From Candidatus Pacebacteria bacterium CG_4_9_14_0_2_um_filter_40_15 (GTDB lineage: Bacteria; Patescibacteriota; Microgenomatia; UBA1400; PJMF01), in NCBI GenBank assembly GCA_002788675.1, contig PFRS01000007.1, forward strand, positions 270 to 64,269: 64,000 nucleotides of DNA, given 5' to 3'. The position numbers and the translations under genes are program-made. How positions within the stretch are numbered: position 1 is the stretch's first letter; each line of letters opens with the position of its first letter. This document shows, piece by piece, positions 22,155-32,244 of the stretch. The notes under the pieces are model-generated. The model saw nothing but the letters and a program-made list of their open reading frames with translations. It did not search any database and was not told where the DNA came from.

Positions 22155-23600
22155 TTAATATGCCTGAGCAAACAACCAAGTGTGCGTTGCTGGTTTACCA
22201 CAGTGTACACATGTTCCGTGTGCTTCTTCAACATCACCTTCGTGGTTCGTGAACGGTAAACATCGAGTAGTTGCTTTTGTTTCTTCTTTAATTGCTGTTT
22301 CACAGGCTGTATCTTCGCACCAAAATGCTTTAATGAAGCCGCGATTCTCTGTCATTATTTTCTTGAAATCATCAAAGGTTGAGGCTTCAAACGTAAGTGC
22401 CTCTTGCCGCTGCTTTGCAGCATCAAATAATGCTAACTGAATATCTTCAAGCAATTTTGGAATTGTTTGACCCAATGTGGCAATGTCCATTGATATTTTT
22501 TCATGATTATAGCGAACTGAAACAGAAACTTTTCCTGAAGCAAGTTCTCTGGCTCCTACCACTATCACGAGTGGAATACCTTCAAGCTCTGCATCATTTA
22601 TTTTCCAGCCCATGGAGGTTGCAATTTCTGTGTTTGCTTCTGCACGGACTTCTTCCTGAATGAGAACATCGGTTATTGTTGCTACTGTATCGAGTGTTTC
22701 TTGATCTTTGGTTGCATTAACTACAAGTACCTGAGTAGGTGCAATTCTTGGTGGTAATACCAACCCTTCATCATCTCCATGTGTCATAATTAGCGCGCCA
22801 ATAATTCGAGTTGAGAGTCCCCAGCTATTCTGCCAAACATACTGGAGAGTATCAGAAGAGTCTTGGAACGAAATATTAAAAGCTTTAGCTTTTGAAAAGT
22901 TTTGACCCAGATGATGACTTGTTCCAGATTGAAGGGCTTTTCCATCTGGCATGAGTGCTTCAATCGTTGTAGTTACAACTGCGCCAGCGAATTTTTCAGA
23001 TTCACTTTTTCGTCCTTTTACAACAGGGATAGCTAGAAAATCTTCTGAAATTTTTCGATAACTTTCCAGTGCATCGTACATTGTTGTCAGTGCTTCAGCT
23101 TGGGTTGCATGGGCGCTGTGAGCTTCTTGCCATAAAAATTCTGTTGTTCTGAGGAAGAAGTTAGTTCGTTTTTCCCATCGCACAACATTATTCCACTGAT
23201 TAATCTTAAGTGGTAAGTCACGATGTGATTGAATCCATTTACTGTACATGTGGTACATGATTGTTTCTGAAGTTGGTCGAACTACAAGTTTCTCAGTGAG
23301 TTCTTCACCTCCTGCGTGGGTAACTACAGCCAGTTCAGGGGCAAAGCCCTCGACATGGTCAGCTTCTTTTTCTAGAAATGACATTGGAATGAAAAGTGGA
23401 AAATAGGCATTTTTAACACGCATTGCAGATAACATTGGTTGATAACTCTGCTGGATATGTTCCCACAAACCATAGCCGTTGGGACGAATAACCATACATC
23501 CTTTAACTGGCGAGTAATCGGCAAGCTTTGCTTGCTGAATGACTTGTGTATACCATTTGCTCATGCTCTCCGATTTAGGAGTTAGATCTCGTTTAGCCAT
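22155..23600 (-). CDS. proS: proline--tRNA ligase (archaeal/eukaryote-like type)
   Basis: KEADHVEGFAPE, RPTSET, VVRWE, FLRTTEFLWQE, C-terminal Zn-binding domain ending FAQAY; start MAKRD. Confidence 0.97.
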   Translation of the reverse strand: MAKRDLTPKSESMSKWYTQVIQQAKLADYSPVKGCMVIRPNGYGLWEHIQQSYQPMLSAMRVKNAYFPLFIPMSFLEKEADHVEGFAPELAVVTHAGGEELTEKLVVRPTSETIMYHMYSKWIQSHRDLPLKINQWNNVVRWEKRTNFFLRTTEFLWQEAHSAHATQAEALTTMYDALESYRKISEDFLAIPVVKGRKSESEKFAGAVVTTTIEALMPDGKALQSGTSHHLGQNFSKAKAFNISFQDSSDTLQYVWQNSWGLSTRIIGALIMTHGDDEGLVLPPRIAPTQVLVVNATKDQETLDTVATITDVLIQEEVRAEANTEIATSMGWKINDAELEGIPLVIVVGARELASGKVSVSVRYNHEKISMDIATLGQTIPKLLEDIQLALFDAAKQRQEALTFEASTFDDFKKIMTENRGFIKAFWCEDTACETAIKEETKATTRCLPFTNHEGDVEEAHGTCVHCGKPATHTWLFAQAY

Positions 23601-23624
23601 GATTCCTTTCAGTTTATTTTGGGT

Positions 23625-23878
23625 AAAAAAAAGACCCATGTAAACAACTACTTTGTGTTTACAAGGGCTCTCTTATGAGGGCGGTACCACCTTGTTTTTG
23701 ATTATTTCTAATCAAATCTTGATGATTGCACTGGTATGCAATCGAGCACATGATTTCGGGTGCTTGCCGGATAAGTTAGCAGTTCTATCTAAATAGACAA
23801 AGGATCCTTATCGATTCTCGCTTGTTTGCGACCTCAAGTTAGGAGCTTAAGGTATACACAACCTGTGTATGAAATCTA
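23625..23878 (-). ncRNA. T-box riboswitch (proS leader)
   Basis: AAGG-TGGTACC-GC...GCCCTT antiterminator overlapping terminator CCCTTGTAAAC...GTTTACATGGG-TCT8; TATACT at rc 23885-23890. Confidence 0.85.
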
Positions 23879-27947: not shown

Positions 27948-29228
27948 TTATTTTTTGAGCGTAATTATTTCAGTACCAACAAAATCTTGTAATACTTCAG
28001 GCACAATAATACTTCCATCTGCCTGCTGATAGTTTTCGATAACAGCAGCGAGTAAGCGAGGTGTTGCTGCCATTGTATTATTAAGTGTGAAGACATGTTT
28101 TGTAGTACCGTCTTTAGCCTGATACTTTATGCCCAGTCTTCTAGACTGAAAGTCATTAAAGTAACTGGCTGAATGTGTTTCTCGATATTTATTTTGGCCT
28201 GGGAACCAAGTTTCAATGTCATACTTTTTGCGCTGTCCTGCACCCATATCGCCTGTGCACATTAAGAGTACTTGGTAAGGTAAACCGAGGTCGTGCAAGA
28301 GTTGTTCTGCATAACCAGTCATTTTTTCGTGCCACTTCTGTGTTTCATCTTCATCAGCAATAGTGTAGACGACTTGTTCCACTTTATTAAATTGATGGAC
28401 CCGGATTATCCCTTGGGTGTCTTTCCCATGGGTGCCCACTTCTCTTCTAAAGCATGGTGAAATGCCGACCATTTTGACAGGTAAATCTGCTTCACTCAGT
28501 GTTTCACCCATGTGATATGCAGTGAGTGCGACCTCTGCAGTTCCTGCTAAAATTTGACCATCTTGGGTTTTGTAGTGATCTTCTTTTCCCCAGGGAAAAT
28601 ATCCAGTTCCTTCCATGGCTTCTTTGTTTACCAAAATTGGTGCAGACATGGCTGTGAAGCCTTCATTGCGTAAGAGTTTTAGAGAATAGTTGAGAATGGC
28701 TTGTTCAAGCAAGAGCCCTTCATTTTTTAAGAAATAAGATCTAAATCCACCAATGCGGACAGCTCTGACTGTGTCGACTAAGTCAAGTGCTTCCATGAGT
28801 TCATGGTGTTGTTTTGGCTCAAAATCAAGTTTTGGAAGTTCTCCAACAGTTCTAACAACTACATTACCTTCTTCATCTTTTCCAATGGGAACTTCATCAG
28901 CAGGCACATTTGGCACACTGTACATAAGTGTGGTAAATGCTTCTTCTGCAAGTTTAAGTTCTGGTTCGATGCCTTGGAGTTCTGTTTTGATTTCTTTGCC
29001 GTTGGCGATAAGTTCTGCAGAAGGTTTGCCGTTTGCTTGAACTTCTTTCTTTACGGCGTCAGCATTCTGATTGGCTGTTTGACGAAGGTTATCGACTTCG
29101 TATTGTAGTTTACGGCGTTTTTCGTCGACAGCTAGAAGTTCGTCAATGATAGAACTTTCAAGTTGCTTATTTTTACAGGCATTTTTTACTACTTCTGGGT
29201 TATCGCGAATGAACTGAATGTCCAACAT
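27948..29228 (-). CDS. serS: serine--tRNA ligase
   Basis: MLDIQFIRDN, GTAEV, CFRREVG, RVHQFNKVEQ, TLNNT..ATPR. Confidence 0.98.
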   Translation of the reverse strand: MLDIQFIRDNPEVVKNACKNKQLESSIIDELLAVDEKRRKLQYEVDNLRQTANQNADAVKKEVQANGKPSAELIANGKEIKTELQGIEPELKLAEEAFTTLMYSVPNVPADEVPIGKDEEGNVVVRTVGELPKLDFEPKQHHELMEALDLVDTVRAVRIGGFRSYFLKNEGLLLEQAILNYSLKLLRNEGFTAMSAPILVNKEAMEGTGYFPWGKEDHYKTQDGQILAGTAEVALTAYHMGETLSEADLPVKMVGISPCFRREVGTHGKDTQGIIRVHQFNKVEQVVYTIADEDETQKWHEKMTGYAEQLLHDLGLPYQVLLMCTGDMGAGQRKKYDIETWFPGQNKYRETHSASYFNDFQSRRLGIKYQAKDGTTKHVFTLNNTMAATPRLLAAVIENYQQADGSIIVPEVLQDFVGTEIITLKK

Positions 29229-29293
29229 AGCACCCTTTCTGCACGTTTGTGCAAAATAATTTATAGTGTGCTTGGCTTTTGGGAAAAAGGTAC

Positions 29294-29467
29294 AAAAAAA
29301 CTCTTACCCATCGACACAAGCGATGTAAGTAAGAGGGTTCTAAGATGACTAGAACGGTGCCACCTCTCCGTACTCATTCCTGCTGTAACGGGCTTACCCG
29401 GCTTGGTTGTTACCCCAAGCAGCATCGATAGCTGCTAACTATCTCAAGTGCTGTTGTTGTTTTAACT
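29294..29467 (-). ncRNA. T-box riboswitch (serS leader) with ultrashort K-turn stem I
   Basis: AGAGG-TGGCACC-GTTCTAG...TTAGAAC-CCTCT antiterminator, terminator plus T7, CCGTTA stem IIA/B motif, K-turn stem with AGC in apical loop; TGCTATACT promoter. Confidence 0.9.
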
Positions 29468-29527
29468 GATGGTAGTATAGCAGAAAGCTTTTTTTTTTGA
29501 AGTGACGTGTGTGTTTAGCATGTATTA

Positions 29528-30141: not shown

Positions 30142-32244
30142 TTAGTCGTTTTTTGAAAAGACAGAAATCAAAAACTCAAAGTGCTCATCAGCAGTTTTAC
30201 CAATAAGTTGCAAACCCTCTTCAATATCTTCTCTACTTACATTGGCAGCAAACGCTTTAGTTTTAAGTTTTTTCTTGATTGATTTTGATTTCATACCCTC
30301 AAGACCAGTTGGGCGAAGTAGTGAAACGGCATTAATGAAACCAGAAATTTCGTCACAGGCAAAGAGGTAGCGGTCCAATGTTGTGATTGGATCACGTCCA
30401 GTTCTAGATGGAGCATGTGCCGCAATAGCATCAAGCATGGCTTGTGGGTACGCTGTTAAGATTTCATTGATGGCTTTATTTGGATGTTCGTCGGGGTACA
30501 TTTCCCAGTCTAGATCGTGGAGCAAACCAGTTTGGTACCAGAGTTCTTCATCCTCACCAAGTTCTTTTGCGTAAGCAGTCATAGCTTGAGCGACCATGCG
30601 TGAGTGGTTGCGTAGTGCTTCATCTGAAATATACTTTTCCAAAAGTGCTGTTGCAGCTTCTCTAGAGGGCATTTCTACAGAATCTGCTTTTTTCTCTGTT
30701 GAAGCATTTTTACCTGTGATATGCAGTGGAACAAGTGGGCGTAGCGTTGGAAAGGCAATCACCTCTTTAATACTCCAAGTGTTAGTAAGGAACATGACTA
30801 AACGGTCAATTCCCATTCCAATTCCACCAAGTGGTGGCATACCATGTTCCATAGCTTCAAGGAAGTCTTCATCAAGTGGATGAGCCTCGGTGTCACCATG
30901 AAGCATATTTGCTTGTTCATTTTCCCAGATGTTTCGTTGATCGACTGCGTCGACAATCTCACTCCAACCATCGGCAAGCTCTTTCCCTCCTATATAGGCT
31001 TCAAAGCGTTCTGCAAATTCTGGTTGGGTGCGATGTTGTTTTGCTAATGGAGAAATGTCACGTGGGTAGTCGACAATCCAAATTGGTGCGATTAAATGAG
31101 GAGTGACTAGTTCATCAAAGAGCTCAAATAATGCTTTACCTCTGGTGAACTCGCTTTTTAGTTCAATTCTGTGGGTTTTCATGAGTGCTTTCACTTCTTC
31201 GTCTGAAAGAGAGTCAAAGTCGATATTTGCGTGTTGTTTAAGTGCTTCATCCATTCGTACTCGAGGCCAGTCACCAGCAATATCAATGATTTTTTCACCA
31301 ACGGTAATCTCATGGTTACCGTAGAGTTTAAAGGTGAGGTGTTTAACCAGAGCTTCTGCTACATTCATCATGCGAGTGTAGTCTGCATAGGTCTCGTACC
31401 ATTCGATCATAGTGAACTCAGGTTGATGGGTTTGATCAATACCCTCATTGCGGAAGTTGCGGGCAATCTCAAAGACTCTATCGTAACCACCTACAATTAG
31501 CCGTTTTAAGTAGAGTTCTGGAGCGATGCGTAGGTAGAAATCACTATCAAGTGCATCCATGTGAGTGGTAAATGGAGTTGCATTTGTGCCGCCATATAAA
31601 GGTTGTAAGATTGGCGTTTCAACTTCAATAAAATCATGTTGATCTTGAAGAAACCGACGGATCTCTTTTTCAATTAACCAGCGAGCATCAAGAATTCTTT
31701 TTGTGTCTGGATTAATGAGCATGTCGACGTATCGTTTTCTAAAACGAACTTCTTTATTATCTGCTGCATTAAAGGCTGTTGGAATTGGTCGAAGTGCTTT
31801 AGAAAGCATCTGAAACTCAGTTGCTAAGATGGTTAGTTCTCCAGTTTTTGTGGTCATTACGGTACCAGACACTCCTAGATAATCACCTCGGTCGACTAAT
31901 GTTTTTAGCCACTCGAATGCTTTGGAATCAACTTCAGCTTCTCGTACCATTACTTGGATATTGGTTGTAGAGTCTTGTAGATCAAGAAACACAACTTTTC
32001 CATGTGCTCTGATGGACATGATGCGACCAGCAGTTTGAACTGATTGATCCATCATTTCTCGAACTTGAGCAATAGTAAACTTCTTATCAAAGAAATGAGG
32101 ATGCACAGTAATACCTTGTGCTTCTAATTGAGCTCTTTTATCTTTTTTTGCTTGAATTGTTTCGTCCATTCGCGACATGCCGGCGGTCCTTTTTGTGCTT
32201 TGTACTGCTTTATTTTGATTAATTTGTGCGTCTTGATTATACAT
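30142..32244 (-). CDS. lysS: lysine--tRNA ligase (class II) fused to C-terminal HD-domain (HDIG-like) hydrolase
   Basis: OB fold, YLRIAPELYLKRL, FRNEG, GIGMGIDRL, then ~175-aa domain with H..LLHDLD..EHP..H..ACDE; true start may be MSRMD at 32178. Confidence 0.95.
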   Translation of the reverse strand: MYNQDAQINQNKAVQSTKRTAGMSRMDETIQAKKDKRAQLEAQGITVHPHFFDKKFTIAQVREMMDQSVQTAGRIMSIRAHGKVVFLDLQDSTTNIQVMVREAEVDSKAFEWLKTLVDRGDYLGVSGTVMTTKTGELTILATEFQMLSKALRPIPTAFNAADNKEVRFRKRYVDMLINPDTKRILDARWLIEKEIRRFLQDQHDFIEVETPILQPLYGGTNATPFTTHMDALDSDFYLRIAPELYLKRLIVGGYDRVFEIARNFRNEGIDQTHQPEFTMIEWYETYADYTRMMNVAEALVKHLTFKLYGNHEITVGEKIIDIAGDWPRVRMDEALKQHANIDFDSLSDEEVKALMKTHRIELKSEFTRGKALFELFDELVTPHLIAPIWIVDYPRDISPLAKQHRTQPEFAERFEAYIGGKELADGWSEIVDAVDQRNIWENEQANMLHGDTEAHPLDEDFLEAMEHGMPPLGGIGMGIDRLVMFLTNTWSIKEVIAFPTLRPLVPLHITGKNASTEKKADSVEMPSREAATALLEKYISDEALRNHSRMVAQAMTAYAKELGEDEELWYQTGLLHDLDWEMYPDEHPNKAINEILTAYPQAMLDAIAAHAPSRTGRDPITTLDRYLFACDEISGFINAVSLLRPTGLEGMKSKSIKKKLKTKAFAANVSREDIEEGLQLIGKTADEHFEFLISVFSKND

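What the first reader, a model, noticed from the sequence alone, without database searches (positions are those of the whole stretch)
29294..29467. Minimal transcriptional T-box on serS: 34-nt K-turn stem I with apical Ser codon
Seen: CAGCA-CUU-GA-GAUAG-[UU AGC AG]-CUAUC-GA-UGCUG (29420-29453) is a textbook kink-turn capped by a 7-nt loop with the Ser codon AGC followed by A, then stem II, CGGG-UAAG-CCCGUUAC, antiterminator bulge UGGCACC and a U7 terminator; the whole leader is ~175 nt. Known: ultrashort stem I with an apical specifier is described for translational ileS T-boxes of Actinobacteria, while transcriptional T-boxes normally have a long stem I gripping the tRNA elbow. Inference: a distinct compact class of terminator-type T-boxes in this lineage, likely missed by standard models.
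Basis: partly seen in the sequence, partly recalled or inferred. Interest (0 to 1): 0.75.

Follow-up and report, generated by a model that had tools for sequence, protein, structure and literature searches.

The report
Minimal serine T-box with terminator
The leader of the seryl-tRNA synthetase gene in this small-genome bacterium is a conserved T-box RNA that shows the serine codon on a tiny hairpin and lacks both parts thought necessary to grip the tRNA, yet it ends in a predicted transcription terminator, so it likely switches the gene on when tRNA-Ser is uncharged and is a natural test of how little RNA a T-box needs.

Summary
Confirmed: a T-box leader on the minus strand before serS, missed by Rfam. 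It has a 34-nt K-turn stem I with AGC in a 7-nt loop, stem IIA/B, the UGGC-ACC bulge (fits G73 of tRNA-Ser) and an overlapping terminator. Helices covary. Terminators: 105 of 117 related leaders against 0 of 29 high-GC ultrashort ileS-type leaders. Added here: stem II is also cut down. None of 56 serine leaders keeps the S-turn; 63 of 65 Ile and 14 of 14 Val leaders do. The sensor resembles Class III (actinobacterial, translational) but fails two of its features. Function is untested. No paper describing it was found in ten searches; the key 2015 paper was not held. This scan reported the same kind on other genomes many times.

The parts
29474..29501 (-). Predicted sigma-70-type promoter (-35, 16-nt spacer, extended -10); transcription start inferred near 29467
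   Evidence: 9 of 12 matches, TG present; 0.6 such sites expected in shuffles, so weak alone; a -10-like hexamer precedes stem I in many relatives
29420..29453 (-). Ultrashort stem I: C-stem, 3-nt bulge, tandem GA (kink-turn consensus), 5-bp helix, 7-nt apical loop; no distal double T-loop (IDTM)
   Evidence: 4 of the 5 helix pairs show two-sided changes in 17 aligned serine leaders
29433..29436 (-). Specifier AGC (29436-29434, Ser; reads tRNA-Ser GCU) followed by the conserved A (29433)
   Evidence: cognate tRNA-Ser(GCU) with G73 lies on contig C10:153516-153601
29401..29420 (-). Short stem II: 6-bp hairpin with 8-nt cap (RGU-N3/4-AA type), no S-turn
   Evidence: 5 of 5 tested pairs covary; cap type in 37 of 56 serine leaders, S-turn in 0 of 56
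29382..29400 (-). Stem IIA (29400-29389) with F-box (29391-29386) and a two-pair IIB pseudoknot (29393-29392 with 29383-29382)
   Evidence: invariant in alignment A1; register supported by covariation of the next pair in the all-bacteria sample (76 of 96 vs 37 permuted) but not within the order (52 of 132 vs 46)
29369..29381 (-). Purine-rich linker and vestigial stem III (one or two pairs at most)
   Evidence: sequence; relatives carry full hairpins at this place
29331..29368 (-). Antiterminator: helix A1 (29368-29363/29336-29331), 7-nt bulge UGGCACC (29362-29356), helix A2 (29355-29349/29343-29337)
   Evidence: minimum-energy fold -11.3 kcal/mol; N = C in 28 of 34 serine leaders with a bulge call
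29294..29335 (-). Predicted intrinsic terminator: bulged hairpin 29335-29301 plus U7; its 5' arm uses the 3' strand of helix A1
   Evidence: -14.9 kcal/mol, z -4.9; -19.8 with helix A2 kept; 105 of 117 relatives vs 11-24 in shuffles
27948..29239 (-). Ribosome-binding site (29239-29231) and serS, seryl-tRNA synthetase, 426 aa (27948-29228)
   Evidence: (TIGR00414, 459 bits, cut-off 302)

Best explanation
It is a T-box leader with an ultrashort stem I, a shortened stem II and an overlapping predicted terminator, which likely lets transcription run into serS only when tRNA-Ser(GCU) is uncharged. Shown by sequence comparison: the parts, the covarying helices, the match of the loop codon and the UGGN base to the downstream gene, and the terminator. 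Inferred from the established T-box mechanism: the tRNA anticodon pairs with AGC in the apical loop; the free GCCA end of uncharged tRNA pairs with UGGC and holds the antiterminator; charged tRNA cannot, so the terminator forms 72 nt before the start codon. Inferred and untested: with no elbow-binding platform and no S-turn, binding would rest on the strong AGC/GCU duplex, the stacking A after it, and the conserved purine cap of the short stem II held in place by the kink-turn and stem IIA/B.
For: Own genome: six leaders whose triplet fits the gene (Ser AGC, Pro CCU, Gly GGC, Ile AUC, Asp GAC by eye; alaS has a long Rfam-type stem I). Order: first blind rule, 62 matches in 84 calls among 124 labelled leaders, permuted mean 20.4, maximum 37 of 10,000. 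New loci: 27 of 29 calls among 40. Synonymous switch AGC 16 / UCC 8 before serS; UCC before serB (L066), GAC before an aspartate aminotransferase (L048). UGGN: Ser C28/U6, Asp C18/U3, Ile U43/C4/A1, Val U7, Cys A1. 95.5% of cells paired, 47 two-sided changes vs 14.7 shuffled. Terminator in 105 of 117 leaders (31 of 34 Ser) vs 11-24 shuffled; 89 of 118 overlap the A1 3' strand. No Rho_N match in the genome, consistent with intrinsic termination. C-ending codons are kept although five tRNA-Ser isoacceptors exist.
Against: No binding or read-through data. A review states that transcriptional T-boxes generally require the IDTM and that mutating the S-turn adenosines of Nocardia ileS cuts binding over 1,000-fold (PMC7583486); this leader has neither part. 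The first blind rule gave no call for 40 of 124 leaders and 22 mismatches; the second rule was written after seeing the first set, and the 40 new loci were picked by a model trained on serine leaders (4 dropped for lacking the IIA motif, 7 not called, 1 miscalled, 1 before a histidine-phosphatase gene). Kin are not independent, so permutation figures overstate. Only 11 of 30 serS loci had a T-box pattern within 400 nt; many of the rest follow another gene directly. The IIB pseudoknot shows no covariation inside the order. The promoter match is weak.
Confidence: 0.8

Rival explanations
1. It is a tRNA-responsive terminator switch, but the RNA alone is insufficient and a protein (a kink-turn binder, SerRS itself or an elongation factor that lengthens pausing) supplies the missing grip on the tRNA.
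For: Both known reinforcing elements are absent; the review notes that B. subtilis thrS gained in-vitro function only with a protein fraction (PMC7583486); the kink-turn consensus is well kept.
Against: No L7Ae/YbxF family match in this 100%-complete genome. S-turn loss follows codon strength across amino acids (Spearman 0.68, n = 10), as expected if the RNA duplex itself compensates.
Confidence: 0.1
2. It is a decaying relic of a long T-box that now acts as a fixed attenuator, with no tRNA response.
For: Stem I, stem II, the pseudoknot and stem III are all reduced; many relatives have no T-box directly before serS; the host has a reduced genome.
Against: Compensatory changes in the helices, an exposed triplet that switches only between Ser codons, a matching discriminator base and new codons in paralogues within one genome need selection on tRNA recognition.
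Confidence: 0.06
3. Control is translational or dual, as in actinobacterial ileS: the switch hides or frees the ribosome-binding site.
For: The sensor has the actinobacterial layout; a predicted hairpin covers the ribosome-binding site in this leader (pairing 0.86) and in three of four congeners.
Against: That hairpin lies wholly downstream of the U-tract and shares no bases with the antiterminator; only 14 of 31 serine leaders show any such pairing, with no common geometry; the start codon is 72 nt past the U-tract; 0 of 29 high-GC ultrashort ileS-type leaders pass the terminator test that 105 of 117 of these pass (base composition favours U-tracts in the latter, hence the shuffle control).
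Confidence: 0.04

Closest known systems
Class III T-boxes: ultrashort-stem-I ileS leaders of Actinobacteria (Nocardia farcinica, Mycobacterium tuberculosis; PDB 6UFM, 6UFG as named in PMC7583486)
   Same: Kink-turn, 5-bp helix, specifier in an apical loop followed by A, no IDTM, near-identical stem IIA/B and F-box, 7-nt T-box bulge (actinobacterial records; definitions in PMC10482949). The ileS and valS paralogues in this phylum keep the same S-turn stem II.
   Different: Serine (and many other) specificity instead of Ile; intrinsic terminator instead of a sequestrator; stem II without S-turn in the serine form (0 of 56); vestigial stem III.
Class I transcriptional T-boxes (Bacillus subtilis tyrS; Rfam RF00230)
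   Same: Antiterminator/terminator output, UGGN-ACC bulge, kink-turn, stem IIA/B, C-ending specifier, aaRS target. The alaS leader of the same genome is of the long type (97.5 bits).
   Different: Stem I is 34 nt with no IDTM and no internal specifier loop; no stem II S-turn; no RF00230 match at E up to 10.
Class II T-boxes (B. subtilis glyQS)
   Same: Transcriptional, and works without an S-turn stem II, explained in the review by a strong codon-anticodon duplex.
   Different: Class II keeps the long stem I with IDTM, is glycine-specific and has no stem II domain; this leader has the short stem I and keeps a stem II hairpin and IIA/B.

Membership tests
T-box riboswitch (general) | 5' stem I with a specifier codon matching the regulated gene | tested here: met
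   AGC before serS; 62 of 84 and 27 of 29 matches in relatives
T-box riboswitch (general) | Antiterminator with 7-nt UGGN-ACC bulge, N pairing the tRNA discriminator | tested here: met
   UGGCACC, G73 in all five tRNA-Ser genes; N tracks amino acid
T-box riboswitch (general) | Response to uncharged cognate tRNA | not testable with these tools
   needs in-vitro transcription or a reporter
Class I (tyrS type, RF00230) | Long stem I with IDTM and internal specifier loop | tested here: not met
   34-nt stem I, apical loop; no Rfam match
Class I (tyrS type, RF00230) | Stem II bearing an S-turn | tested here: not met
   0 of 56 serine leaders
Class I (tyrS type, RF00230) | Intrinsic terminator overlapping the antiterminator | tested here: met
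   (prediction by sequence)
Class II (glyQS type) | Long stem I with IDTM, glycine specificity, single-stranded linker in place of stem II | tested here: not met
   short stem I, Ser codon, stem II and IIA/B present
Class III (actinobacterial ileS type) | Short stem I without IDTM, specifier in a 5-6-nt apical loop | tested here: met
   7-nt loop, equal to 5 nt plus a mismatched or wobble closing pair; same layout as actinobacterial records
Class III (actinobacterial ileS type) | Stem II with S-turn and 5-purine string | tested here: not met
   6-bp hairpin with 8-nt cap; met by the Ile and Val paralogues
Class III (actinobacterial ileS type) | Stem IIA/B pseudoknot with F-box | tested here: met
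   invariant IIA and F-box; IIB cut to two invariant pairs without covariation in the order
Class III (actinobacterial ileS type) | Mostly translational output (sequestrator, no terminator) | tested here: not met
   terminator 105 of 117 vs 0 of 29; no conserved ribosome-site pairing
Class IV (Actinomyces ileS type) | Intermediate stem I with side-bulge specifier | tested here: not met
   apical loop here; two relatives (L066, L148) look side-bulged by eye

The most novel reading that the evidence does not exclude
Patescibacteria carry a fifth T-box architecture: a terminator-coupled switch with neither the elbow clamp nor the S-turn latch, in which an anticodon-like 7-nt loop (YU-NNC-AN) kisses the tRNA anticodon loop and a conserved RGU-N3/4-AA cap on a 6-bp stem II replaces the S-turn. 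Across its ten or more specificities the S-turn is kept for weak codons (AUC, AAA), variable for middling ones (GUC kept, GAC mostly lost) and dropped for strong ones (AGC, UCC, UGG, CGC), a natural series that would test what the IDTM and the S-turn are for and whether the C-rule needs the S-turn.
Probability: 0.45. Interest if true: 0.8.

Novelty: new variant of a known kind. Interest (0 to 1): 0.63.

Why it matters
Reviews hold that terminator-type T-boxes need the long elbow-binding stem I for speed, and that short stem I works only with the stem II S-turn (PMC7583486, PMC10482949). A conserved 174-nt leader with neither, still coupled to a terminator, makes both statements directly testable and offers a very small, reprogrammable tRNA-charge sensor. 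It also shows a regulatory layer in Patescibacteria that Rfam-based annotation misses: up to six aaRS genes in one 1.2-Mb genome.

Tried and rejected
Rfam at gathering and E-value thresholds: no T-box match for this leader. Whole-leader folding was uninformative (z -1.26); the consensus terminator scan missed the bulged hairpin. Pairing of the stem IIA loop with the following UUAC was rejected: not above permutation in any set. A label-informed hairpin search found a candidate in every leader and often the wrong hairpin, so it was not used for counts. A conserved ribosome-site sequestrator was sought and not found. L7Ae/YbxF and Rho_N: not found in this genome with these families. No RNA holder was listed for the stretch. 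Cluster look-up of three window proteins gave no names; a plasmid search with SerRS gave only distant matches. Sherwood 2015 was not held by DOI or PMC id; the TBDB supplement held only 122 characters, so its figure on class I hits with truncated stem I could not be seen. No tree was built: the leaders are too short to settle whether the short stem I came from the actinobacterial ileS leader or arose by local truncation.

Full report
1. Observation. The element is on the minus strand between a weak sigma-70-like promoter (29501-29474) and serS (27948-29228; TIGR00414 459 bits). The antiterminator folds at -11.3 kcal/mol and the terminator at -14.9 (z -4.9), and they share bases 29335-29331. 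Rfam finds only tRNAs in the window, nothing T-box-like here at E up to 10, and RF00230 does not list this place in the genome. Results that did not help: the whole leader folds no better than shuffles, the consensus scan finds no terminator, and the energy model prefers a 3-nt AGC loop; in relatives loop positions 1 and 7 are mismatched in 29 of 30 loops counted.

2. The genome. G000 is 1.22 Mb and 100% complete; its relatives are mostly 0.5-1.6 Mb, and records named Patescibacteria, Parcubacteria and Magasanikbacteria carry the same short-stem-plus-U-tract layout, so I place it in Patescibacteria by inference. It has six T-box-like leaders: alaS with a long stem I (97.5 bits), and serS, proS (also in this window), glyS, ileS and aspS, each with a short hairpin whose loop holds the cognate codon (read by eye). 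tRNA-Ser(GCU) is present and ends in G73, which pairs with the C of UGGC.

3. Does the triplet track the gene? A stem IIA/B pattern hit 163 of 286 genomes of the order, reversed control 0 (the tally includes one unpublished genome, G159, on which no other claim rests). Of its 310 matches 150 were listed; I held 30 as loci and fetched 100 more, plus serS loci. After removing duplicates 139 leaders remained, 124 with a gene label (N-terminal motifs; 33 checked with NCBIfam). A label-blind rule (first 7-nt-loop hairpin after a -10 box, loop positions 3-5) made 84 calls and 62 matched; permuted labels gave mean 20.4, maximum 37. Forty leaders got no call, mostly Ile with 5-6-nt loops, and 22 calls picked another hairpin or register. 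serS leaders show AGC (16) or UCC (8). A second, kink-turn-anchored rule written after seeing these data matched 70 of 77 calls on the same set, and on 40 further loci chosen with a covariance model it matched 27 of 29 calls (Ser, Asp, Ile, Trp); 4 loci were dropped for lacking the IIA motif, 7 had no call, one was miscalled and one UCC leader precedes a histidine-phosphatase gene. UCC also precedes serB and GAC an aspartate aminotransferase. The UGGN base is C in 28 of 34 Ser and 18 of 21 Asp leaders, U in 43 of 48 Ile and 7 of 7 Val, A in the one Cys leader; the expected discriminators for other species are from my own knowledge. Kin are related, so these figures are not probabilities.

4. 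Structure. In 17 insertion-free serine leaders (of 37) 95.5% of cells pair, with 47 two-sided changes against 14.7 shuffled; 4 of 5 stem I helix pairs and 5 of 5 stem II pairs covary, stem IIA is invariant. The IIB register (loop GC with downstream GC) is supported by the next pair in the all-bacteria sample (76 of 96 vs 37) but not inside the order (52 of 132 vs 46), so here it is two invariant pairs.

5. Output. A hairpin of -8 kcal/mol or better directly before a U-tract follows the bulge in 105 of 117 leaders (31 of 34 Ser), in 11-24 after dinucleotide shuffling, and in 0 of 29 high-GC ultrashort ileS-type leaders from the all-bacteria scan (that scan stopped at 120 rows). In 89 of 118 the hairpin overlaps the A1 3' strand. 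A hairpin over the ribosome-binding site is predicted in this leader, but it lies beyond the U-tract and is not conserved in form (14 of 31).

6. Stem II has no S-turn. By rule, S-turns occur in 0 of 56 Ser, 6 of 30 Asp, 1 of 4 Trp, 0 of 2 Pro, 0 of 1 Arg, 0 of 1 Ala, 63 of 65 Ile, 14 of 14 Val, 1 of 1 Cys and 1 of 1 Lys leaders (19 of the Ser leaders came from a model trained on short stem II, but the pattern-selected set already gave 0 of 37). Retention follows the stacking energy of the codon-anticodon duplex (Spearman 0.68, p 0.03 over 10 amino acids, several with one leader; Cys is an exception, and Val and Asp differ at equal energy). In 37 of 56 serine leaders the hairpin is capped by RGU-N3/4-AA and in 15 by a GRAA-type loop. 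The review attributes the C-rule to the S-turn, yet these leaders keep C-ending codons with five Ser isoacceptors on hand; I infer that the cap may still touch G34, which is untested.

7. Mechanism. Best reading (0.8): co-transcriptional tRNA sensing as in other T-boxes, with codon-anticodon pairing in the apical loop, capture of the uncharged 3' end by UGGC, and read-through into serS. The anatomy and covariation are shown; binding, switching and the role of the cap are inferred. Rivals: a protein helper (0.10; no L7Ae family match), a relic (0.06), translational or dual control (0.04).

8. Known families. It works like a T-box and passes the sequence tests of the general family. It is not Class I or II (no IDTM) and fails two Class III features (S-turn, translational output), using the four-class scheme in PMC10482949 (passages read). 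Its ileS and valS paralogues are Class III sensors with terminators. Origin is open: the ileS leaders closely resemble actinobacterial ones, but long and intermediate stems also occur in the order (L053, L057, L082, L066, L148).

9. Spread. 103 of 150 genomes of the order by covariance model; 43 of 401 across the phylum by the strict pattern, whose control also hit 8 genomes, and 5 of the 26 new loci examined had no T-box bulge by my rule. Firmicutes and Chloroflexi hits in the all-bacteria sample had long stem I as far as the cut output showed.

10. Literature. Ten searches found no paper joining T-boxes with Patescibacteria, CPR or Microgenomates, 30 of 163 papers were listed and none of those contained 'T-box'. 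Read: PMC7583486 (passages; sections 5, 7 with subsections), PMC10482949 (passages), PMC10651847 (passages), PMC7778990 (passages; part 2 of section 3; supplement not readable), PMC7913692 (passage; section 38), PMC11665869 (passages). Sherwood 2015 was not held; Vitreschak 2008 and Gutierrez-Preciado 2009 were not read. TBDB applied its class II model to class I hits with truncated stem I, so some terminator-coupled short forms may sit in that database unremarked. Earlier notes of this scan describe the same kind on other genomes for Ser, Asp, Asn, Gly and Tyr; they are unchecked and not counted as evidence.

11. Verdict. Real, conserved, a new variant of a known kind; interest 0.63.

Noticed in passing
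window 23600-23870 (-), before proS (22155-23639): Second T-box leader in the window: hairpin 23853-23831 with loop CU-CCU-AA (Pro codon CCU, an exception to the C-rule), UGGUACC bulge near 23690, terminator and U-tract; it lacks the IIA/B pattern and scores 29.5 bits on RF00230.
   Followed up: partly
G000:C4:119540 (-), C4:93272 (-), C8:103093 (-), C8:281643 (-): Further T-boxes before glyS (short hairpin with GGC, UGGA bulge, no IIA/B pattern), ileS (AUC), aspS (GAC) and alaS (long canonical stem I): short and long forms coexist in one genome.
   Followed up: partly
G000:C10:164955-165040 (L317); L318-L324: A fifth tRNA-Ser gene with anticodon ACU, kept as ACU in all 7 relatives examined. 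A34 outside tRNA-Arg is rare in bacteria (own knowledge). ARAGORN lists tRNA-Arg GCG, UCG, UCU and CCU but no ACG, and a tRNA-Ile(UAU) at C1:334100; a deaminase-motif ORF lies near C10:158287.
   Followed up: partly
L105, L150, L152: aspS leaders that by eye show AAC (Asn) instead of GAC, as expected for a non-discriminating AspRS.
   Followed up: no
L042, L076, L078 (G044); L039, L069, L070 (G042): T-boxes of different specificity in one genome share the same stem III insertion, suggesting local duplication, conversion or a small repeat.
   Followed up: no
L052, L083, L036, L070, L102: Short T-boxes with the Arg codon CGC in front of genes with no family match, a nucleoside hydrolase-like gene, or a contig end; possible unrecognised arginine-related genes.
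   Followed up: no
L340; L066; L048; L078: Non-synthetase targets: UCC before a histidine-phosphatase-family gene (possible phosphoserine phosphatase), UCC before serB, GAC before an aspartate aminotransferase, UGC before a PIG-L family gene.
   Followed up: partly
window 30142-32244 (-): A lysyl-tRNA-synthetase-like ORF of 700 aa with a C-terminal extension that looks HD-domain-like by eye; in several relatives serS follows such a gene directly and has no leader of its own.
   Followed up: no
window 29270-29226 (-): A predicted hairpin encloses the serS ribosome-binding site downstream of the terminator, also in three congeners, without conserved form further out.
   Followed up: yes
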